DNA from: a virus
Lineage: Duplodnaviria > Heunggongvirae > Uroviricota > Caudoviricetes
Length of the DNA stretch: 8,403 nt
Reading direction: 5' to 3' (one strand)
IMG/VR virus record: IMGVR_UViG_2802429224_000013
Below are positions 1 through 7,919 of the stretch, piece after piece. The position numbers were made by a program, and so were the translations under genes. Positions within the stretch are counted from its first letter, which is position 1; the number at the start of each line of letters is the position of its first letter. The notes beneath the pieces were generated by a model. That model saw only the letters and a list, made by a program, of their open reading frames with translations. It was not told the DNA's origin and searched no databases.

Positions 1-488
1 AAAACAGCCATGTGTAACGCTCTGACCGTTACAAAAAGAGAAAGCGCCCCGTTGCCGGAGCGCCTTTGTGAACGAATTACCTGTAGCACCGCGATGTTTG
101 CTATATGGGTGAATTTTAGCGACAAGTTCGTTCAATGTGAAGGCGCTGATCACCGTTACTACAGCACGCCAGAAATGCAGAATATTTTGCTGCAAAATGC
201 CGTTGGCCACGCCGTCCGGAAAGCAAAAAATTTTGCTGGTGGCGCGACCGATACGATTTTTTCTGGTAGCCCGGTGCTGATCAACTTAGCTTGGATTTAT
301 GTGCAACATTGCAACTATTCCGACTTTAAGCTGAATGTGACTTTACCTATATCTTTAGAGGTGTGGTCGCGCTTGACCTCTATTTCACCATTTTGTAGCC
401 CTGCTACAAAAAAATATAAAAGTGTCAATGCTGCTGCAATCAGTAACCATTTTCTAGGAATATACATTCTTGATTTTACCCTTAATCA

Positions 489-662
489 TCAACCTTTTGG
501 CTCGATGCCCCGCTGTTGTAATTCTTTGCGGAGTACTCGTTTAATCCAAGTAGCTAATGAGGTGTCGCCGTCTGCTTTGGCTGCCTCCTCAAGTTGCGCT
601 CTAAATTCTTCTGGTAGTCGCATTTGGTATGGTGGCGATCGTTTCTCTAATGGTGTTGACAT
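489..662 (-). CDS. Ribbon-helix-helix (Arc/MetJ/CopG-like) DNA-binding protein, 57 aa; candidate repressor of the divergent operon
   Basis: Hand translation of the minus strand gives MSTPLEKRSPPYQMRLPEEFRAQLEEAAKADGDTSLATWIKRVLRKELQQRGIEPKG, with a beta-strand-like YQMRLP followed by two helices, the classic RHH layout. ATG at 662-660, stop as TCA at 489-491 on the plus strand, SD-like AAGGG 8 nt upstream. Not in the ORF track because it is shorter than the track cutoff. Confidence 0.6.
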   Translation of the reverse strand: MSTPLEKRSPPYQMRLPEEFRAQLEEAAKADGDTSLATWIKRVLRKELQQRGIEPKG

Positions 663-702
663 GGTAATTACCCTTAATTACTATAGTTACATGGTAATTA
701 CC
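656..702. promoter_or_regulatory. Divergent promoter/operator region with two copies of ACATGGTAATTACC spaced exactly 30 bp
   Basis: The 14-mer occurs at 659-672 and 689-702; its core GGTAATTACC is a perfect 10-bp palindrome. The first copy overlaps the start codon and RBS of the RHH gene. A consensus TTGACA sits at 656-661, with TACTAT 17 bp downstream (679-684) as a possible -10 for the plus-strand operon. Confidence 0.45.
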
Positions 703-792
703 ATTGTACTTACCATTACGCAAAAAACAACGCCCCGCAGTGCTGGAACACATGCAGGGCGTCTAACCAAACCGTTAAACGAGGTAACGATT

Positions 793-1161
793 ATGGCTGG
801 AACACAGCATACCCAAACTCACCCTAAATTTATATACACCTTCCTGGCGGTGCACCGTGATTGCATCGCTGACGGTAAAAATACTGTTCATGTAGCCGCC
901 GATACGCTGGTTGATGCCTGCGAGATGCTCAATGACATGGGCTATATCTCGGCAACATGGAAAGGGCGTGAAGAAAACACGTTGTTTATTCAGAAATGCG
1001 AAAACAATTTTATCTGGCGTTTTATCGCCCTGAGTACGGCACAACCGCGCGTGATTCACATCGAGGCCACCAGCGAACAGGAAGCACGCCAGCAATCTCC
1101 TGATGGCTGCGTGATGGTATTCGCTGCCCGTATTCGCCAGGAGGTGCATCATGTGCAATAA
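793..1161 (+). CDS. Hypothetical protein, 122 aa; first gene of the coupled plus-strand operon
   Basis: ATG at 793 preceded by GAGG at 781-784 (8-nt spacing). It is the 3' part of the 10..1161 track ORF. The stop at 1159-1161 overlaps the next gene's start within CAGGAGGTGCATCATGTGCAATAA. No family recognised. Confidence 0.6.
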   Translation: MAGTQHTQTHPKFIYTFLAVHRDCIADGKNTVHVAADTLVDACEMLNDMGYISATWKGREENTLFIQKCENNFIWRFIALSTAQPRVIHIEATSEQEARQQSPDGCVMVFAARIRQEVHHVQ

Positions 1162-1369
1162 AAACACGCCGGACGCAGCCGCCGAAGCCATCAAAACGCT
1201 AATGCACGCGCTGATTGATATTAATTACACGGCAGGGCTGGCAAAGAATAAAAAAGATGCGGTATTCACATCGAGCGTACTGGAATCTATTCAGATTATT
1301 GCTGAGCATGCACTGAATAAATCTCAAAATATTCTGATTGCTGATGTGCAGGAGGTGCACCATGCATAA
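1151..1369 (+). CDS. Hypothetical small protein, 72 aa
   Basis: ATG at 1151 with a perfect AGGAGG at 1139-1144 (6-nt spacing), embedded in the 3' end of the upstream gene. Ends QEVHHA, mirroring the upstream gene's QEVHHVQ end (see duplication finding). Confidence 0.45.
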   Translation: MCNKNTPDAAAEAIKTLMHALIDINYTAGLAKNKKDAVFTSSVLESIQIIAEHALNKSQNILIADVQEVHHA

Positions 1370-1730
1370 CCTGTCAATTTCTGACCTTAACAGCATTCAG
1401 TTTGACGAGAAATTTACCGGGCAGTTGCTGGTCAATGTGGAGAACGGGCGCATAGTGCGTAATTACCACCTGCCGGATGGTGCAATTGCCGGAAGCGTTG
1501 AAGCATTGCTGGAACTGGCGGAACGTGCGCGACTGATTAAGCCGTCAACGTGCCATCACGATGATGATCTGCATTTTACCGGGTGTATGGTGAGTCACTA
1601 CGAAAACGGCGTTGAAGTATCCTGCGAACGTCTGCGTGATGATTGCTGTTTCGGCACACTGCCGGAATTTATCGAATTGCTGACCAGTTGCGGTTATCAG
1701 GTCATTCAGGGGGGGGTGAATCATGGGTAA
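1362..1730 (+). CDS. Hypothetical protein, 122 aa
   Basis: ATG at 1362 with GGAGGTG upstream; the start overlaps the stop of the previous gene (ATGCATAA). The stop at 1728-1730 overlaps the next start (ATGGGTAA). No family recognised. Confidence 0.6.
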   Translation: MHNLSISDLNSIQFDEKFTGQLLVNVENGRIVRNYHLPDGAIAGSVEALLELAERARLIKPSTCHHDDDLHFTGCMVSHYENGVEVSCERLRDDCCFGTLPEFIELLTSCGYQVIQGGVNHG

Positions 1731-1923
1731 TAAGCCAGCAACAATGACAATTACCCTGAATGTGCCAGAGGATTTCACCGGACGCATACTGGTTTACCTG
1801 GATAAAGGGAAAGTGAAATCACAATGCCGGCTGCGAAATAATGAAATTGTAAGTACGGCAGAAGGCTTTTCTGAACTCTGTATTAGTGCAGGAATAAAAC
1901 CGGAACTGCTGACAGGAAAATAA
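1723..1923 (+). CDS. Hypothetical small protein, 66 aa
   Basis: ATG at 1723 preceded by a G-rich SD (GGGGGGGGTGA); translationally coupled to the gene upstream. Confidence 0.5.
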   Translation: MGNKPATMTITLNVPEDFTGRILVYLDKGKVKSQCRLRNNEIVSTAEGFSELCISAGIKPELLTGK

Positions 1924-1927
1924 AACC

Positions 1928-2218
1928 ATGAAAAAGAAAAATTCTGGCTTTACTGCCAGCGGTCTCTCTCGGCCTGAAATCAGACACGGAGATATTTACC
2001 GCGACACCAGACGTGGGGGACGAGTGGTTATTCGTCACGTTACGCCAGGCAATATCACCTACCGCCGTGAGGCTTACGAATATGACTGCGTAATGCCGCG
2101 CCGTCAGTTTGAGCGTGATTTTATTCTGGTTGAAAACAAACAACAGGCAGTGGCAAGACGTGCAGCCACGAATATTAAAAAAATCCGGGCAATGTTGGTT
2201 GCGGGAGGTAAGAAGTGA
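1928..2218 (+). CDS. Hypothetical basic protein, 96 aa
   Basis: ATG at 1928 with AGGAAA 8 nt upstream. The stop TGA at 2216-2218 overlaps the GTG start of the helicase gene (GTGA). Confidence 0.55.
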   Translation: MKKKNSGFTASGLSRPEIRHGDIYRDTRRGGRVVIRHVTPGNITYRREAYEYDCVMPRRQFERDFILVENKQQAVARRAATNIKKIRAMLVAGGKK

Positions 2219-3627
2219 AAAACGCACCGAATTTAAAATATCAGCCGAAGGATAAATTCACCGAGGTAATCATTTTTGCCGGGACGGACGCTTACTCCCA
2301 TGCTCAACACTGGATTGAAAGCGAAGGACGAAAACACGGCGATAACGTACCACCTGTTTACCTGGGGCCGAAGCAACTGGCAGACCTGGCGAATATCCGC
2401 ATTATTGACGAGAAACGCCGCTTTGCGCGTGTCTATCTCGCGGGGGAGATCGAACCAATCCAGATCAATGCTATCGCTGAAAAACTGGCGCTGGCTGGCG
2501 TACAGGAGGCGAAATTATACAAAGGCATCACCGACCGGGAGCCGGAGAACTGGCGCGATTACCTGCAACGAATCCGCGAACAGCCAGAGCACGAAGAAAT
2601 GCTTACTGACGAGCAATACAGCCAGCGAAAAACCACACTACCAATGAGCATTGGATCGGAAGGATATGATTCACAGCTTAGCTATGTAGTTAAGGGCGTG
2701 ATTCCGGCTAATTCGCTATGTAGCACATACGGTGCGAGCGGTTCTTATAAGTCGTTCCTTGCGTGTTCGTGGGCATGTCATGTTGCTACCGGTATCCCGT
2801 GGGGAGGTCGCAGGGTTGTACATGGTGCGGTTATGTATGTCGTTGGTGAGGGCGGGATCGGTGTTCCTCGTCGTATCAAGGCATGGGAACTGGTGAACAG
2901 TGAGCAGGTGAAAAATCTGTACCTGGTAAATCGTCCAATTTTTCCGGCCGCACCGAGTGATGTTGATGAAATGGTTATTGCTGCCCGACAGGTTGAGCTG
3001 GAAACGGGTAAACCTGTACGCATGATTATTCTGGATACTCTGGCGCGTTGCTTTGGTGGCAGCGATGAAAATGATGCGCGGGATATGGGGGCATTTGTCC
3101 ATGGATGTGACGAACTGAAACGGCGTACAGGCGCTACAGTGCTGGTAATTCACCATTCCGGCAAGGATGAAACAAAGGGTGCGCGCGGTTCCAGTGCGTT
3201 TCGTGCAGCACTGGATGCAGAGTACCGGATACGCCGTGAAGGTGCAGGCAGTGAAGCCCTGGTTATCGCATGTACCAAGATGAAGGATGCGGAGGAACTG
3301 AAAGAAATGGCTTGCGATTTGCGCGAGGTTGAGCTTTTCAAGGATGAAGGCGGGGAGTTAATCACGTCGTTGGTGCTGGAGGATAAACCCCGTCCGCCAG
3401 TTGAACTGGAGCGCATCGAGTACGTTGCTAACAAGACAGAGAATCACGCCGCGCTATGGGGCTGTATCCGTTCACGCACGCAACGCGGAGATAAATGCAC
3501 TATCCCGTTGTTGCGCGATGACATGAAAAAGCTGGGGTATGAGATGAAAAACTTCCGACGCTGGCTGTACAAGCTGGAAGGTGACGGCGTAATCGCTATT
3601 GACGATGATGACGTGCGCCCACTGTAA
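2215..3627 (+). CDS. RepA-like / DnaB-like P-loop ATPase (AAA_25-type), candidate replication initiator-helicase, 470 aa
   Basis: GTG start at 2215 with GGGAGG at 2203-2208. Recognisable motifs: P-loop-like YGASGSYKSF, Walker-B-like RMIILDTLARCFGG, and a VLVIHHSGKD motif typical of RepA/RecA-fold helicases. Roughly 150 aa of N-terminal and 100 aa of C-terminal extension may carry origin-binding function. Confidence 0.85.
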   Translation: MKNAPNLKYQPKDKFTEVIIFAGTDAYSHAQHWIESEGRKHGDNVPPVYLGPKQLADLANIRIIDEKRRFARVYLAGEIEPIQINAIAEKLALAGVQEAKLYKGITDREPENWRDYLQRIREQPEHEEMLTDEQYSQRKTTLPMSIGSEGYDSQLSYVVKGVIPANSLCSTYGASGSYKSFLACSWACHVATGIPWGGRRVVHGAVMYVVGEGGIGVPRRIKAWELVNSEQVKNLYLVNRPIFPAAPSDVDEMVIAARQVELETGKPVRMIILDTLARCFGGSDENDARDMGAFVHGCDELKRRTGATVLVIHHSGKDETKGARGSSAFRAALDAEYRIRREGAGSEALVIACTKMKDAEELKEMACDLREVELFKDEGGELITSLVLEDKPRPPVELERIEYVANKTENHAALWGCIRSRTQRGDKCTIPLLRDDMKKLGYEMKNFRRWLYKLEGDGVIAIDDDDVRPL

Positions 3628-4015
3628 AAAGTGAGGCGTAAAAGTGAGGGGGACAGGGAATATTTAAAAATCACCCCTGTTTCCCTCACTTCTCAACCTG
3701 TATATATACCAAAAAGTGAGGAGTTAATTTTGTACTAAAAAAACAAAGAGTTAAGTGTATTCGCATTTTCTATTTTTGAATATAGGGCAAATAATAAATG
3801 TGAGTAGTAAATGTGAGGAATAGTGAGTAAATAGAATAAATTCTCTGGAAATTACAAACAGGTAAAAAATAAAACAAATAAAGATTTTAACTAAAACTTA
3901 ACTATTTGCCTCATATTTGCGTATATATAGGGGTTTTAAAGTGAATACTTAAAAATACATTTAAAATCATATTGTTATTAACTTCATAAATTCTCACTGT
4001 GTAGCAGGTGAGGAA
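3627..4015. repeat. Iteron-containing, AT-rich origin-like region immediately downstream of the helicase gene
   Basis: At least eight copies of (A)AAGTGAGG / TGTGAGK in both orientations: 3631-3636, 3644-3649, inverted 3684-3689, 3716-3721, tandem 3800-3805/3813-3818/3823-3828, inverted about 3992-3997, and 4008-4013. An imperfect 15-bp inverted repeat lies at 3644-3690. The 3840-3990 stretch is very AT-rich, as expected for an unwinding element. Confidence 0.55.
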
Positions 4016-4038
4016 TTAAAAAATCAGGAATGTTAAAA

Positions 4039-4812
4039 ATGAAAACAGAACGTTACATACCTCAGGGTATGACTTACATAGAGCGTGAAGAACTGAAAAG
4101 TTTTGCGACATCATGTGGACTACGCGGCGATATTCAGAGCCTTACCAGAACTCTGATAATGATTGCGCACTGGATGAGGCAGGGTAAGCCAGTGAGCTTC
4201 ACAGAATACGCCAGCCAGTGGACAGAGGCACAGCGCGAACGGGACGACGGTAATCACTCAACGCCTGAAATGGCGAAGCAATGGCCTTTCAGTGGCAAAC
4301 GATGCATTTATCCCAGGTGCTCCGATTACTACCCATACGGAACGGAAAGAGAACATCAGGATGACGAAACGGAAATTAAACACGCAGTAACGGTAATTCT
4401 TGCCAAATACCCGTTTTTTAACCGCAATGGTCTTGTTCGGTATAGCCGTGACAAGCCATGGGAGCACCCGCTTGATTATGTCTGTTTTATGGAGGAGGCA
4501 AAAAGCTGTTTGCGCTGGATAAGGGAGAACAATCTTACCGACTGCAAAATTGCATCATTCCCCGGTAAAAATCCGACATCCTACGGCCTGAAACATTGTG
4601 TTGAACGGGCGAATCAAATAAGAGCAAAGGCAAACGGAAAACCCACGGAGCCGACGTATATCACAAACGGTGCTCTAATTGCCGCAATGGTCGCGGCTGG
4701 TTATCAGATAAAGCCTGAAGGAAGGATGAATTGCCGATTCAATATTTCGCGTAAGCAGCTTAAGAGTGTATTGAGCGGGGAATCTTACAAATCAGGAGAG
4801 TGGACGATATAA
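4039..4812 (+). CDS. Hypothetical protein, 257 aa, no family recognised; cysteine-containing, first gene of an accessory operon
   Basis: ORF track 4030..4812. The preferred start is the ATG at 4039 (AGGAA 8 nt upstream); the ATG at 4030 is the alternative. It follows a long AT-rich, promoter-like region and is followed at 12-24 nt by the FinO-like gene. Several Cys pairs (KRCIYPRCS, CFMEEAKSC) are present but no catalytic motif is evident. Confidence 0.7.
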   Translation: MKTERYIPQGMTYIEREELKSFATSCGLRGDIQSLTRTLIMIAHWMRQGKPVSFTEYASQWTEAQRERDDGNHSTPEMAKQWPFSGKRCIYPRCSDYYPYGTEREHQDDETEIKHAVTVILAKYPFFNRNGLVRYSRDKPWEHPLDYVCFMEEAKSCLRWIRENNLTDCKIASFPGKNPTSYGLKHCVERANQIRAKANGKPTEPTYITNGALIAAMVAAGYQIKPEGRMNCRFNISRKQLKSVLSGESYKSGEWTI

Positions 4813-4835
4813 CAGAAACATCTATGGGGCAAAGC

Positions 4836-5366
4836 ATGACTAAGCTGACCATTAACAGAAAACCAAAAGGCATTTACGGCACGCCGCAGAAAACGACGCA
4901 GGCGGCGCAAGAGCAGGATAAAACCACGTCGGCGCATAAAGTGATGCCCGGTAACCAGAAAGCGCAGCAGAAGCCCACAGGGGCGACACCGTGGCGGCAT
5001 ATGACCAAACGCCAGCGCAAAAACCGCAGGCGCGTTAACCGCCTCACTGAGTTGTGGCCTGACTTATTCAGCCGGGAAGCACCGAAGCCGCTTAAGGTGG
5101 GGATATTCGACGACCTGATGCAGGATCTCGCCGTCAGGGGGCTGGCATTCGGGCCAGGGGCATTGCGTGCGACGCTGGCATCTTATGCGCAGTGTCCGCG
5201 CTATTACCGCGCCTTAATGGCTGGTGGGGTACGCTACGACCTGAAAGGCCAGCCGTGCGGCGAGGTGACACCACAGGAACAACAGGACGCAGAAACGCGG
5301 CTGGTGGCGCTGAATGAGAAGCGCAAACGTCAGCGCCGGGCAGCAAAGGAGAAAACAGGCGCATGA
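4836..5366 (+). CDS. ProQ/FinO-family RNA-binding protein (RNA chaperone-like)
   Basis: The segment PLKVGIFDDLMQDLAVRGLAFGPGALRATLASYAQCPRYYRALMAGGVRYDLKGQPCGEVTPQEQQDAETRL matches the conserved ProQ/FinO N-terminal domain pattern (PLKIGIF..DL, LR.AL..Y..S.RY, R.DL.G.PCGE), and the C-terminus is basic. Start is uncertain between ATG 4824, ATG 4836 (GGGG 6 nt upstream, preferred) and the track's GTG 4800. Confidence 0.85.
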   Translation: MTKLTINRKPKGIYGTPQKTTQAAQEQDKTTSAHKVMPGNQKAQQKPTGATPWRHMTKRQRKNRRRVNRLTELWPDLFSREAPKPLKVGIFDDLMQDLAVRGLAFGPGALRATLASYAQCPRYYRALMAGGVRYDLKGQPCGEVTPQEQQDAETRLVALNEKRKRQRRAAKEKTGA

Positions 5367-5650
5367 TTCACGACAGCAAAGCGGAAGCACTGGAAGCGCG
5401 TGGTCTGTACCGGAGAGCGGCGGCGCGGTGGGCTGAGGTCATCATGCTGGCGAATGATGACAAGGCACGGGAACAGGCGGCAAAACGTCGCGCGGAATGT
5501 ATCCGCAAGGCAGCACGCCCACCAGCAAGGCAGGATAATTTCGGAGAGATGCGCGAAACCATCAGCCGGGCACATGCCGGGATGGGATTACATCAGCCCA
5601 ATGGTAAGGCATTCAGGAAATACCCTGGATCGAAAAATTGCAGTCAGTGA
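5363..5650 (+). CDS. PerC-family-like small transcriptional regulator, 95 aa
   Basis: The N-terminal AEALEARGLYRRAAARWAEVIML fits the PerC-family signature as I recall it (LE.RGL.RRAA.RW.EV). The ATG overlaps the FinO stop (ATGA), and AAGGAG lies upstream. Confidence 0.6.
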   Translation: MIHDSKAEALEARGLYRRAAARWAEVIMLANDDKAREQAAKRRAECIRKAARPPARQDNFGEMRETISRAHAGMGLHQPNGKAFRKYPGSKNCSQ

Positions 5651-6713: not shown

Positions 6714-7385
6714 ATGCTTTTAACAGAAATTGAGGCGGCAAAGCAGATTCGGGACGGTCAGCTACCGTCGCCTTATCAGTTTTCCAACATGTGGCTGATT
6801 AACCTGCGTATCACAGGAACCGGAATGGCCTATCGCGCCGAAGAAAAAGAATTTGTCTGGCGTTCACCGCAAACTTATCTCAATCCGCAGTTCCTGGAAC
6901 GTTGCGCCGGAGTACCCGTCATCATCGACCATCCCGAAAGCAAAACCCTTGAAGACGTGGGCGAACGGTCGCGCATTATTGGCACCGTCATGTTGCCGTA
7001 TATTCGCGGTGACGAGGTGTGGGGCGTATGCCGGATTTACGGGCAGGAAATCATCGATTACATCCAGAAAGCCCGGGGGGAGATATCCACCAGCCCGTCG
7101 GTTGTGTTTTGTGGTGCGTCCGGTGGGGCAGAAGTTCCTGATGTAATGGGCGAGGACAATTTTTTTATTGAGGGTACGCCATTTCTTATCGATCACGTTG
7201 CACTCGTACCGTTGGGCGTATGGGATAAGGGCGGGAAACCATCAGGTGTGGAAGTAACAACGCCGACAGAAGAAGAACAGCTCGCCGGAATGGTTCGTGA
7301 AGTTATTGATGCGGCCTGCAAGCCAGCCCTGGAAAAACTGGAAGAAATATCCGGGCGGCTGGCTCAACTGGAAAAAGAAGGGTGA
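6714..7385 (+). CDS. Hypothetical protein, 223 aa, with a C-terminal coiled-coil-like tail
   Basis: ATG at 6714 with a GGGGGA SD. The C-terminus (EEEQLAGMVREVIDAACKPALEKLEEISGRLAQLEKEG) looks helical or coiled-coil. No family recognised. Confidence 0.7.
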   Translation: MLLTEIEAAKQIRDGQLPSPYQFSNMWLINLRITGTGMAYRAEEKEFVWRSPQTYLNPQFLERCAGVPVIIDHPESKTLEDVGERSRIIGTVMLPYIRGDEVWGVCRIYGQEIIDYIQKARGEISTSPSVVFCGASGGAEVPDVMGEDNFFIEGTPFLIDHVALVPLGVWDKGGKPSGVEVTTPTEEEQLAGMVREVIDAACKPALEKLEEISGRLAQLEKEG

Positions 7386-7391
7386 GTCATA

Positions 7392-7919
7392 ATGCTAATG
7401 AGCAAGGCAGAATATGCCAAACACAAAGGCGTAAGCCGCCAGACAGTTTACGACTGGATCGAGAAAGGCGAAGTGATCATGTCTGGCAAAAAAATTGATG
7501 TGGAGGCGACAGAGCAGCGGAACAGCCCACCGGAACAAGGGAAAGACACCGTTTCTGAAATGTGGCCAGAAAGAACGCTGGAAATGACGTGGGGCGAGTT
7601 CTGGAAAGCAGTTAAGGCCAGAGACGGTAAAGACCCAGCGCCAGTAACTGACGATGATATAGAGCAGCGCGTGCGGAATGCAGCCGAAGAATTAGGCTGG
7701 GAAGTGCAATTTCTTGATGGTGGTGCTATCTGCCTTGAGGATTGCGACGGACAGCATTACTTTGAGCAATACGATTTGCTGGGTAATGCTCGTCTGGCAA
7801 TTCGTATGCTGCGTTGCGAACTCTGCTATGTTGCAGGTGATTATCCCGATGAACTGGAATCATGGAGTGAAGCCGGGCTAAACGCCCTGGCTGAATGGGA
7901 AAAATCAGACCATCAATGA
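7392..7919 (+). CDS. Protein with N-terminal AlpA/Nu1-type helix-turn-helix, 175 aa; candidate small-terminase-like or packaging-redirecting DNA-binding protein
   Basis: The N-terminus (MSKAEYAKHKGVSRQTVYDWIEKGEVI) resembles the winged-HTH start of lambda gpNu1 as recalled (KKQLADIFGASIRTIQNWQEQGMPV) and AlpA/excisionase-type HTHs. Its size is close to Nu1, and it is followed directly by a complex repeat array. Confidence 0.6.
   Translation: MLMSKAEYAKHKGVSRQTVYDWIEKGEVIMSGKKIDVEATEQRNSPPEQGKDTVSEMWPERTLEMTWGEFWKAVKARDGKDPAPVTDDDIEQRVRNAAEELGWEVQFLDGGAICLEDCDGQHYFEQYDLLGNARLAIRMLRCELCYVAGDYPDELESWSEAGLNALAEWEKSDHQ

What the first reader, a model, noticed from the sequence alone, without database searches (positions are those of the whole stretch)
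3627..4015. Iteron origin with GTGAGG repeats and an adjacent AT-rich unwinding region
Multiple direct and inverted RWGTGAGG repeats lie directly 3' of the RepA-like helicase gene, followed by about 150 bp of very AT-rich DNA. This is the layout expected for a self-encoded ori of a satellite or PICI. The same AT-rich DNA probably also holds the promoter of the accessory operon, so replication and cargo expression may be linked.
Basis: partly seen in the sequence, partly recalled or inferred. Interest (0 to 1): 0.5.

Follow-up and report, generated by a model that had tools for sequence, protein, structure and literature searches.

The report
Replication origin of an E. coli phage satellite
The repeats just after the helicase gene are very probably the replication origin of an E. 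coli phage-satellite island, read by the helicase's own DNA-binding tail; this is an ordinary example of a published origin layout, though one amino acid in that tail tracks one base of the repeat.

Summary
GTGAGG occurs 11 times in the window against 2.8 expected, six of them in 3627-4015. A looser 10-nt match finds 11 sites in the 411-bp gap between the genes, against 0.9 in shuffles.

The window lies in a roughly 15-kb PICI-type island: integrase at tRNA-Thr, AlpA, a RepA-family helicase, ProQ/FinO and PerC. The repeats form three clusters, 3627-3727, 3796-3829 and 3906-4014, separated by spacers of 18-24% G+C.

Three comparative results support the origin reading.
- Sister islands with other replicases (DUF927, DUF5906, primase family) swap the gene and the whole intergenic region together. 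Each has its own repeat family there.
- In two E. coli islands all 11 sites read GTGGGG. Their helicase differs class-specifically at one residue, N446H.
- Across about 90 loci from many Enterobacterales, residue 446 tracks repeat base 4: N with A, H or K with G, S or G with C.

Residue 446 caps the recognition helix of a confidently predicted C-terminal winged helix. This layout is published for PICIs and SaPIs (Fillol-Salom 2018), and the published island EcCIO42 carries the same helicase type and GTGAGG repeats. No binding or replication was tested. The promoter idea has no support. Verdict: a new member of a known kind, of modest interest.

The parts
2215..3627 (+). repA: RepA-family (Pfam AAA_25, RecA-fold) hexameric-helicase gene, 470 aa; the proposed initiator-helicase
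   Evidence: PF13481 AAA_25, E 5.9e-44, residues 151-319. Weak match to RSF1010 RepA 1g8y. phrog_2850 matches full length. Annotated 'helicase RepA family protein' in RefSeq relatives.
2215..2603 (+). N-terminal domain of RepA, about 130 aa, shared with the other replicase alleles; it lies outside the swapped cassette
   Evidence: About 93% nt identity to the 5' ends of the DUF927, DUF5906 and primase-family genes in L091-L093. Homology stops at 2593-2603. phrog_864 'DNA primase', E 1.4e-8. AF2 predicts an alpha/beta domain, pLDDT roughly 60-90.
3427..3624 (+). C-terminal winged-helix domain of RepA (residues about 405-470), the proposed iteron reader
   Evidence: AF2 on the C-terminal domain alone: pLDDT 88, H409-424, H430-439, H447-456, strands 460-463 and 466-469. 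Most of the best Foldseek PDB matches are winged-helix domains, including the top hit (MCM C-terminal WH 2ma3, DtxR, LexA, IclR, MCM8 WH), mostly probability 0.9-0.99.
3550..3552 (+). Codon 446 (AAC, Asn), at the N-terminal cap of the recognition helix; the specificity-linked residue
   Evidence: It is the only residue separating GTGAGG islands (N) from GTGGGG islands (H). Across loci: N with A in 31/33, H with G in 12/14, K with G in 33/36, S with C in 7/7, G with C in 2/2.
3627..3727 (.). Iteron cluster A: AAGTGAGG at 3629-3636 (+), 3642-3649 (+), 3684-3691 (-) and 3714-3721 (+). Copies 2 and 3 form a 24-nt-arm inverted repeat, 3642-3691.
   Evidence: The same order (direct, direct, inverted, TATATA box, direct) starts right after the stop codon in every specificity class and genus examined. 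The hairpin folds at -33 kcal/mol as RNA in the centroid structure, z -4.6.
3699..3708 (.). Conserved TGTATATATA box between the divergent iterons at 3684-3691 (-) and 3714-3721 (+); candidate first melting site
   Evidence: Present as (C)TGTATATA, CATATATA or a close variant at the same relative position in E. coli, Xenorhabdus, Leclercia, Pantoea, Serratia, Pectobacterium, Morganella, Rahnella and others, whatever the iteron sequence.
3728..3795 (.). AT-rich spacer 1 (23.5% G+C), sequence-variable between islands
   Evidence: There are 19-30 mismatches per 60 nt against other GTGAGG-type islands, while the iteron cores are kept.
3796..3829 (+). Iteron cluster B: three direct copies, ATGTGAGT 3798-3805, ATGTGAGG 3811-3818 and TAGTGAGT 3821-3828
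   Evidence: The corresponding cluster directly precedes the next gene in the short 200-bp origins of EcCIO42 and its relatives.
3830..3905 (.). AT-rich spacer 2 (18.4% G+C), among the least stable duplex DNA of the window; candidate unwinding element
   Evidence: Nearest-neighbour stability scan: the least stable 30-mers of the window start at 3859-3879 and 3933-3966.
3906..4014 (.). Iteron cluster C: CCTCATAT 3909-3916 (-, degenerate), GCGTATATATAG box 3919-3930, AAGTGAAT 3939-3946 (+, degenerate), CTCACTGT 3993-4000 (-), AGGTGAGG 4006-4013 (+). The stretch 3909-3944 is an inverted copy of 3686-3721.
   Evidence: Inverted repeat I1, 36 nt, 75% complementary. All four sites switch to the GGG form in L004 and L005. 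This cluster is absent from the short origins such as EcCIO42.
3947..4038 (+). Block nearly invariant among RepA-type long origins, ending in the ribosome-binding site of the next gene; function unassigned (5' UTR, possible regulated promoter, or part of the origin)
   Evidence: Alignment A1. No sigma-70 consensus promoter and no intrinsic terminator in 3500-4150. No Rfam family above threshold.
4039..4812 (+). Optional 257-aa gene of unknown function between the origin and the ProQ/FinO gene; not part of the origin and marks its right-hand limit
   Evidence: Annotated start in L001. Replaced after window 4054 by a 16-codon ORF in L007-L010. No Pfam hit.

Best explanation
The intergenic region 3628-4038 is the cognate replication origin of a Gram-negative phage-inducible chromosomal island (PICI). 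It forms one inherited module with the helicase gene just upstream.

Proposed mechanism. After induction, RepA is made. RepA has a RecA-fold, RSF1010-RepA-like hexameric helicase core and a C-terminal winged helix. The winged helix reads the 8-10-bp repeats (A)AGTGAGG(A), and residue Asn446 at the start of the recognition helix pairs with the A at repeat position 4. Oppositely oriented repeats flank a short conserved TGTATATA box and two spacers of 18-24% G+C. Binding there concentrates RepA, the AT-rich DNA opens, and the helicase loads itself without DnaA.

What is shown and what is inferred.
- Shown by sequence comparison: the repeats, their position, their co-inheritance with the replicase, and their co-variation with residue 446.
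- Shown by structure prediction: the winged-helix fold.
- Inferred by analogy with SaPI and PICI Rep proteins and with the tested EcCICFT073 rep-ori: binding, melting, self-loading and autonomous replication.
For: 1. Enrichment and position. There are 11 repeat-like sites in 411 bp against 0.9 expected. The first starts one base after the stop codon.

2. Cassette swap. Sister islands with DUF927, DUF5906 or primase-family replicases lose homology from 2593-2603 to 4806-4824. Each has a different repeat family in the same slot: TGAGACAAC, about 11 copies; GGGTAGA, about 10 copies; GGTAGAC/GTAGACA, 6 copies each.

3. Concerted change. In L004 and L005 all 11 sites read GGG instead of GAG, on both strands. 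Their repA coding DNA is almost identical to the window, at 0-6 mismatches per 60 nt (0-3 over the last 900 nt), and N446H is the only class-specific residue.

4. A residue-to-base rule across about 90 loci from more than 20 genera: N with A in 31/33, H with G in 12/14, K with G in 33/36, S with C in 7/7, G with C in 2/2.
- It held on loci fetched afterwards: L094-L096, L097-L100 and L101.
- Where I read the sequence of non-conforming loci (L031, L075, L086, L087, L089), the repeat array is missing or reduced to a remnant; two of them have a truncated or frameshifted helicase gene.

5. Purifying selection. Among GTGAGG-type islands, 89% of core columns are invariant against 53% of other columns in 3628-3905 (Fisher p = 2e-7).

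6. Fold. The C-terminal domain is a confident winged helix with residue 446 at the N-cap of helix 3.

7. Context. The 99.7%-identical island in E. coli ARS-C101 has an integrase next to tRNA-Thr, AlpA, one-directional genes and PerC.

8. Literature.
[quoted passage not shown] The EcCICFT073 rep-ori drives plasmid maintenance (PMC6092414).
- SaPI Rep proteins read iterons through a C-terminal winged helix (PMC9371898).
- The published EcCIO42 carries a RepA-family helicase with the KNF helix and GTGAGG repeats.

9. No DnaA box within two mismatches and no IHF consensus in the region.
Against: - Nothing here measures DNA binding, melting or replication.
- The co-variation counts include many closely related loci (about 25 Xenorhabdus), so the number of independent events is far below the number of loci.
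- Within E. coli the N/H switch may reflect recombination of a unit made of the helix and the origin rather than point mutation.
- Several copies in clusters B and C of this particular window are degenerate compared with sister islands (ATGTGAGT, CCTCATAT, AAGTGAAT), so this copy may fire less well.
- The motor is RecA-fold, not the SF3/AAA+ motor of the characterised SaPI Rep proteins. Self-loading is therefore an analogy across non-homologous helicases.
- No primase gene was recognised in the window.
- The full-length AF2 model is poor, pLDDT 64.
Confidence: 0.85

Rival explanations
1. The repeats are operators rather than an origin. RepA, through its winged helix, binds them to repress or activate transcription of its own operon or of the downstream ProQ/PerC genes, as iteron-plasmid initiators autoregulate at inverted repeats. 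This could also be a second role alongside origin function.
For: Cluster C (3906-4014) and the invariant block 3947-4038 sit just upstream of the next gene, and their sites co-vary with RepA like the others. Cluster C is absent from the short origins of EcCIO42-type islands, so it is dispensable for the basic origin. The inverted pair 3642-3691 resembles an autoregulatory inverted repeat.
Against: No sigma-70-like promoter is found in 3500-4150. The same position was shown to act as an origin in EcCICFT073 and in SaPIs. All four replicase alleles, of different protein families, carry repeat arrays there, which fits origins better than four independent operator systems. The binding protein is a helicase.
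Confidence: 0.07
2. The main feature is the strong hairpin at 3642-3691, acting as a transcription terminator or attenuator, or as an RNA stability element, at the end of repA. The other GTGAGG copies would be incidental.
For: A 17-bp stem, -33 kcal/mol as RNA in the centroid structure, z -4.6. Hairpin potential at the same place in most relatives.
Against: No U-tract follows, and the terminator scan finds nothing. In several relatives (for example L004, L095, L096) the pairing rests essentially on the two inverted iterons, while the sequence between them is not conserved and not palindromic. This does not explain the nine other sites, their concerted change or the link to residue 446. Rfam gives only sub-threshold microRNA hairpin matches.
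Confidence: 0.03
3. The region is a packaging (cos/pac) site or a recombination site with repeated binding sites for a terminase small subunit or a recombinase, not for the helicase.
For: Satellites carry helper cos or pac sites. Repeated short motifs with AT-rich DNA also occur in cosB-type regions. A protein with a TerS-like HTH is encoded at 7392-7919.
Against: The repeats travel with the replicase allele, not with the downstream packaging-related genes, which stay constant across alleles. They track a residue of the helicase. ProQ, PerC and DUF4222 protein accessions are shared between GTGAGG and GTGGGG islands.
Confidence: 0.02
4. It is an origin by descent but no longer functional in this island: a decaying remnant like the repeats kept beside truncated repA genes elsewhere.
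For: L007 and L008 keep intact repeat arrays next to truncated repA. In the window and L001 several cluster B and C copies carry private substitutions.
Against: repA is an intact 470-codon ORF, 97% identical to a protein cluster of 258 members. Cluster A has four perfect AAGTGAGG copies. The element context is complete in L001.
Confidence: 0.03

Closest known systems
Replication origins of Gram-negative PICIs (Fillol-Salom et al. 2018, ISME J, PMC6092414), including EcCICFT073 (tested) and EcCIO42
   Same: The origin lies immediately 3' of the initiator gene, with short iterons in sets flanking AT-rich DNA. The island has an integrase, AlpA, one-directional genes and PerC. E. coli PICIs have four replicase alleles, matching the four seen here. 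EcCIO42 (L094) has the same RepA-family helicase (81% nt identity), the same KNF helix and GTGAGG repeats.
   Different: This island has a 411-bp origin with a third repeat cluster and a second, inverted 'iteron-TATATA-iteron' unit. EcCIO42-type islands have about 200 bp and two clusters. Function was tested only for EcCICFT073. I could not establish which replicase family EcCICFT073 carries.
SaPI origins and Rep / Pri-Rep proteins (Ubeda et al. 2007 and 2012, from my own knowledge; Qiao et al. 2022, PMC9371898)
   Same: A self-encoded initiator-helicase with a C-terminal winged helix reads 5-8-nt iterons directly downstream of its gene. There are 6-12 iterons, half on each side of an AT-rich centre, with opposite orientations. 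Specificity is allele-specific.
   Different: SaPI Rep motors are SF3/AAA+ 3'-5' helicases. This motor is AAA_25, RecA-fold and RSF1010-RepA-like, so it is not homologous. Polarity and loading route may differ. The hosts are Gram-positive, and the SaPI regulatory layout is divergent.
Satellite phage P4 alpha protein with ori and crr (from my own knowledge; mentioned in PMC6092414)
   Same: An enterobacterial satellite whose multidomain replicase carries a C-terminal winged-helix domain that binds short repeated octamers. Two separate repeat-bearing regions (ori and crr) are needed, which recalls clusters A/B and C here.
   Different: P4 alpha is a primase plus an SF3 helicase. Its repeats (TGTTCACC type) and their spacing of several kb differ. 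PICI and P4 gene sets are distinct.
IncQ plasmid RSF1010 replication system (RepA helicase, RepB primase, RepC initiator; from my own knowledge; PDB 1g8y)
   Same: The helicase core belongs to the same family (AAA_25; weak direct match to 1g8y).
   Different: In RSF1010 a separate protein (RepC) reads 20-bp iterons and RepA has no DNA-reading domain. Here the reader domain is fused to the helicase and the repeats are 8-10 bp.
Classical iteron plasmid origins (pPS10, F, R6K, RK2)
   Same: Repeated initiator sites next to an AT-rich unwinding element, and inverted copies that can serve autoregulation.
   Different: Those iterons are 17-22 bp, the initiators are winged-helix proteins without helicase activity, and DnaA boxes and host DnaB loading are required. 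No DnaA box is present here.

Membership tests
PICI / SaPI-type replication origin | Lies immediately 3' of the initiator (rep) gene | tested here: met
   The first repeat starts at 3629; the repA stop codon ends at 3627. The same holds in all relatives examined.
PICI / SaPI-type replication origin | Short iterons in at least two sets flanking an AT-rich region, with copies in opposite orientation | tested here: met
   Clusters A, B and C with spacers of 23.5% and 18.4% G+C; minus-strand copies at 3684-3691, 3909-3916 and 3993-4000.
PICI / SaPI-type replication origin | Iterons are specific to the cognate Rep allele (rep and ori form one module) | tested here: met
   Cassette swap with four replicase families, each with its own repeats. 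Residue 446 tracks repeat base 4.
PICI / SaPI-type replication origin | Rep carries a C-terminal winged-helix domain that recognises the iterons | tested here: inconclusive
   The winged-helix fold is predicted with pLDDT 88 and matches winged-helix structures, and co-variation points to its recognition helix. Physical binding was not measurable.
PICI / SaPI-type replication origin | The rep-ori fragment supports autonomous replication | not testable with these tools
   Shown only for EcCICFT073 in the literature. A 17-kb circular K. pneumoniae record (L101) with the same module is suggestive only.
Gram-negative PICI (the element as a whole) | Integrase at a specific attachment site, AlpA regulator, genes in one direction, size about 10-15 kb, no full phage structural or lysis set | tested here: met
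   In the near-identical island L001: integrase next to tRNA-Thr, Phage_AlpA (E 2.4e-19), rightward genes, about 15 kb to the next element. No match to phage genomes at the DNA level.
Gram-negative PICI (the element as a whole) | Induction, packaging and transfer by a helper phage | not testable with these tools
   There are only hints: a TerS-like HTH protein at 7392-7919 and a DUF2213 / protease-like gene.
SaPI Rep helicase family (SF3 / AAA+ motor) | Helicase core homologous to SF3 / D5-type AAA+ ATPases | tested here: not met
   The core is PF13481 AAA_25 (RecA-fold), E 5.9e-44. The best PDB sequence match is RSF1010 RepA 1g8y. The top fold match for the full model is the Twinkle helicase.
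Classical iteron-plasmid origin | 17-22-bp iterons, DnaA boxes, and an initiator without helicase activity | tested here: not met
   Repeat unit 8-10 bp. No DnaA box within two mismatches between 3386 and 4114. The candidate binding protein is a helicase.
IncQ (RSF1010) replication system | Separate RepC initiator and RepB primase, with three 20-bp iterons | tested here: not met
   No RepB or RepC homologue among the window ORFs. The repeats are short and numerous.

The most novel reading that the evidence does not exclude
This family may be a natural, readable 'specificity code' for a self-loading replicative helicase of the RecA-fold RepA type. One residue at the start of the winged-helix recognition helix (N, H, K, S or G at position 446) would set base 4 of the iteron (A, G, G, C, C). 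A single N446H change would then be enough to re-pair the helicase with a GTGGGG origin and so create a new incompatibility or specificity group. I found no description of this in the paper library I could search. It would also make this the first RecA-fold helicase shown to act as its own origin reader, in contrast with the SF3-type SaPI Rep proteins and P4 alpha.
Probability: 0.4. Interest if true: 0.45.

Novelty: new member of a known kind. Interest (0 to 1): 0.3.

Why it matters
For annotation, it fixes the rep-ori module of a widespread E. coli island family. RepA-type genes were found in 682 of 5426 complete genomes. It also gives a simple rule for finding such origins: count short repeats in the 200-400 bp after the replicase stop codon.

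For biology, the module decides which satellites can replicate independently in one cell. The residue-to-base correspondence offers a cheap, testable handle on how new origin specificities arise, and on how a RecA-fold helicase can act as its own initiator.

It does not change the current picture of PICI replication, which already predicts this layout.

Tried and rejected
- Known RNA. An Rfam scan of 3500-4200 gave only sub-threshold microRNA-type hairpin matches to the inverted iterons. Rejected.
- Intrinsic terminator or sigma-70 promoter. The consensus scan found none in 3500-4150. The hairpin 3642-3691 is explained by two inverted iterons.
- DnaA boxes and IHF sites. None in the intergenic region.
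- Other island proteins as the repeat reader. DUF4222, ProQ/FinO and PerC protein accessions are shared between GTGAGG and GTGGGG islands. The 257-aa protein is absent from L007-L010, which keep the repeats. All rejected.
- Fold search with the full-length model. It was uninformative for the C-terminal domain because of low model confidence. I repeated it on the C-terminal domain alone.
- Sequence searches of the C-terminal and N-terminal domains against Pfam. No significant hit.
- DNA search of phage genomes. No match. A protein search found only distant helicase cores.
- Fillol-Salom 2018 text and supplements searched for the GTGAGG iteron. Only a coincidental primer match. The iteron sequences are in a figure that is not held, so I could not confirm that this exact repeat was listed.
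- Apparent exceptions to the residue-to-base rule. The five I read (L031, L075, L086, L087, L089) lack a repeat array or keep only a remnant, and L031 and L087 have a damaged helicase gene.
Full report
**1. Observation**

The stretch 3627-4015 lies between the stop codon of a 470-codon ORF (2215-3627) and the next gene. That gene's annotated start corresponds to 4039.

- GTGAGG occurs 11 times in the 8403-nt window against 2.8 +/- 1.7 expected. Six copies lie in the stretch.
- RWGTGAGG occurs 6 times against 0.7 expected, five of them at 3629-3818.
- A looser match to AAAGTGAGGA gives 11 sites in 3620-4029 against 0.93 +/- 0.92 in 2000 shuffles, maximum 6.
- G+C is 28% over 3628-4038 against 49% for the window. 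The least stable duplex DNA of the whole window lies at about 3859-3908 and 3933-3995.

There are three repeat clusters:
- A, 3627-3727: copies in the order +, +, -, +.
- B, 3796-3829: three + copies.
- C, 3906-4014: copies in the order -, +, -, +.

Two AT-rich spacers separate them, 3728-3795 and 3830-3905. A TGTATATATA box (3699-3708) sits between the divergent copies of cluster A. The stretch 3909-3944 is an inverted copy of 3686-3721, with its own TATATATA box.

**2. What the element is**

The upstream ORF has a RepA-type helicase core (Pfam AAA_25, E 5.9e-44). It matches the RSF1010 RepA structure 1g8y weakly.

The window is 99.7% identical over 3400-4100 to a chromosomal island of E. coli ARS-C101. 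That island has:
- a tyrosine integrase next to tRNA-Thr;
- an AlpA-family regulator (PF05930, E 2.4e-19);
- an AntA-like gene and an Icd-like gene;
- DUF4222, the RepA helicase, ProQ/FinO, PerC, NUDIX and DUF2213 genes.

All genes from DUF4222 onward read in the same direction. The island spans about 15 kb. There is no DNA match to phage genomes.

This is the gene layout of Gram-negative phage-inducible chromosomal islands described by Fillol-Salom et al. 2018 (PMC6092414).

**3. Cassette test**

Parts of the window occur in 1611 of 5426 complete E. coli genomes, but the replicase differs between islands. It is a RepA helicase, a 'DNA primase family' protein, a DUF927 protein or a DUF5906 protein.

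In three such islands (L091-L093), homology to the window stops at 2593-2603, about 130 codons into repA. It resumes only at 4806-4824, just before the ProQ gene.

The intergenic DNA after each alternative replicase carries its own repeat family in the same mixed-orientation, AT-rich layout:
- TGAGACAAC, about 11 copies;
- GGGTAGA, about 10 copies;
- GGTAGAC/GTAGACA, 6 copies each.

The replicase core, its C-terminal part and the entire intergenic region are therefore inherited as one unit.

**4. Concerted change and co-variation**

*The alignment.* I aligned the intergenic region from ten RepA-type E. coli islands. In L004 and L005, all 11 sites read GGG where the others read GAG, on both strands.

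*The helicase in those two islands.* Its coding DNA is almost identical to the window, at 0-6 mismatches per 60 nt (0-3 over the last 900 nt). The intergenic DNA has 20-26 mismatches per 60 nt. Exactly one residue separates the two groups: N446 in GTGAGG islands, H446 in GTGGGG islands.

*Conservation.* Among GTGAGG islands, 89% of repeat-core columns are invariant against 53% of the other columns in 3628-3905 (p = 2e-7).

*A wider sample.* A scan of one genome per species returned 80 loci from more than 20 genera. The commonest G+C-containing words in the 450 bp after the stop codon follow the residue at the equivalent position:

| Helix motif | Repeat |
|---|---|
| K-N-F | AAGTGAGG |
| K-H-F | AAGTGGGGA |
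| K-K-F | AAGTGGGGGA |
| K-S-F | AAGTGCGGCA |

*Formal count*, using base N in [AG]TG-N-G within 300 bp:
- N with A: 31 of 33 loci.
- H with G: 12 of 14.
- K with G: 33 of 36.
- S with C: 7 of 7.
- G with C: 2 of 2.

I read the sequence of five of the seven non-conforming loci (L031, L075, L086, L087, L089). All lack a repeat array or keep only a remnant, and L031 and L087 have a truncated or frameshifted helicase gene.

*Loci fetched afterwards behaved as predicted.*
- EcCIO42: N with GTGAGG.
- Two diverged E. coli islands: H with GTGGGG.
- VKNM with GTGAG, TKHL with GTGGG, and two RKGF loci with TGCG.
- A 17-kb circular Klebsiella record: KSF with TGCGGC.

*Caveat.* Many loci are close relatives, so independent events are far fewer than loci. 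Still, N and H alternate among close E. coli relatives and recur in distant genera.

**5. The reader domain**

AlphaFold2 on the last 73 residues, with a 25-sequence alignment, gives pLDDT 88. The predicted elements are helices 409-424, 430-439 and 447-456 and a beta-hairpin at 460-469.

Most of the best Foldseek matches in the PDB are winged-helix domains, including the top hit: the MCM C-terminal WH, DtxR/IdeR, LexA, IclR and the MCM8 WH. Most have probability 0.9-0.99 and TM about 0.6-0.7. The E-values are weak, as expected for a domain this small.

Residue 446 is the N-terminal cap of the third, recognition helix. Asn with adenine and His or Lys with guanine are chemically ordinary pairings for direct base readout. 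That statement rests on general knowledge, not on a model of the complex.

The full-length model is poor, pLDDT 64.

**6. Mechanism proposed**

RepA binds the repeats through its winged helix. Oppositely oriented copies flank the conserved TGTATATA box, which is present at the same relative place in every specificity class. The low-stability spacers lie beside them.

The AT-rich DNA opens, and the hexameric helicase assembles on it without DnaA. There is no DnaA box or IHF consensus in the region.

The steps beyond sequence recognition are inferred from two sources. SaPI Rep proteins have a winged-helix C-terminal domain, bind without ATP, and load themselves (PMC9371898). The EcCICFT073 rep-ori fragment maintains a plasmid (PMC6092414).

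**7. Rivals**

- A role as RepA operators for downstream transcription cannot be excluded, especially for cluster C and the invariant block 3947-4038. It is more likely an additional role than an alternative.
- No sigma-70-type promoter or intrinsic terminator is detected.
- The strong hairpin at 3642-3691 consists of two inverted iterons. The sequence between them is not conserved, and in several relatives (for example L004, L095, L096) it is not palindromic.
- No Rfam family matches.
- A packaging or recombination site is unlikely, because the repeats travel with the replicase and not with the constant downstream genes.
- In sister islands homology resumes only 10-30 nt before the ProQ start. 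Any promoter between origin and ProQ would therefore have to be cassette-specific, so read-through across the origin is the simpler reading. This is an inference.

**8. Comparison with what is known**

The layout is the one published for PICI and SaPI origins: iterons immediately after rep, in sets flanking AT-rich DNA, specific to the allele.

The published island EcCIO42 carries the same helicase family and the same repeat, in a shorter 200-bp origin. The finding is therefore a new member of a known kind.

Differences worth noting:
- The helicase motor is RecA-fold (AAA_25), not the SF3/AAA+ type of the characterised SaPI Rep proteins and of P4 alpha. 'Works like' holds but 'member of that protein family' does not.
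- This island's origin is twice as long, with a third cluster and a second, inverted 'iteron-TATATA-iteron' unit. This loosely recalls P4 ori plus crr.
- I did not find the one-residue to one-base correspondence in the literature I could search.

**9. Verdict**

The origin interpretation is supported at about 0.85 confidence. The promoter and coupling idea is untested and currently without support.

Interest is modest at 0.3, since the layout is the expected one. The most novel reading still open is a single-residue specificity code for a self-reading RecA-fold helicase.

Noticed in passing
window 2215-2603: The first ~130 codons of repA are about 93% identical at the DNA level to the 5' ends of the DUF927, DUF5906 and 'DNA primase family' replicase genes of sister islands. 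They also hit phrog_864 'DNA primase' (E 1.4e-8). The recombination joint of the rep-ori cassette therefore lies inside the replicase gene, and this N-terminal domain is a shared module of unknown role.
   Followed up: partly
L008 (E. coli cq9) 256-3154; L007 (E. coli 52F4) 2366-3153: L008 carries two origins in tandem. A primase-family replicase with its own GGTAGA repeats (L008 2005-2320) is followed by a C-terminal remnant of repA and an intact GTGAGG repeat region. L007 also keeps the repeats beside a truncated repA.
   Followed up: partly
window 4039-4812 (joint near 4054): The 257-aa gene after the origin has no Pfam family and is optional. In L007-L010 the sequence diverges after window 4054 into a 16-codon ORF followed directly by the ProQ/FinO gene. 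In L002 and L006 other genes follow.
   Followed up: partly
L101 = CP018459.1 (K. pneumoniae pKp_Goe_795-4, 16,971 bp, circular): A record deposited as a non-mobilizable plasmid looks like a satellite in circular form. It has an integrase, capsid, head-tail adaptor and terminase genes. It also carries the same helicase family, with a K-S-F helix and TGCGGC repeats in the same layout.
   Followed up: partly
window 3699-3708 and 3919-3930; same relative position in L012-L101: A TGTATATA-like box between an inverted and a direct iteron is conserved across all repeat specificity classes and genera, although it does not co-vary with the helicase. It may be the first melting point or a priming signal.
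   Followed up: partly
window 3631, 3716, 3800 (also 3644 and 3813): GTGAG cores of clusters A and B are spaced 85 and 84 bp apart (169 bp for the second pair), which is close to whole numbers of helical turns. These copies would therefore face the same side of the DNA.
   Followed up: no
window 10-1161: A 383-codon ORF has no Pfam family. Its PHROG hits ('transcriptional repressor' and unknown-function families) are concentrated in about the last 70 residues, apart from one weak match at residues 241-284. RefSeq annotates Icd-like proteins of varying length over that end. The long ORF is not annotated as such, and YlcI/YnfO genes lie on the other strand in some relatives.
   Followed up: no
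window 7392-7919 and 6714-7385: The 175-aa product has a TerS-like or excisionase-like HTH at its N-terminus (phrog_57, E 3e-7). The DUF2213 product weakly resembles head maturation proteases (phrog_530). These are candidate helper-interference or packaging genes of the island.
   Followed up: no
window 4800-5650: A ProQ/FinO-family RNA-binding protein gene is followed, with a 4-nt overlap, by a PerC-family activator gene. The pair is kept across islands whatever the replicase allele. Published work links PICI-encoded PerC and RgdR to control of LEE virulence genes.
   Followed up: no
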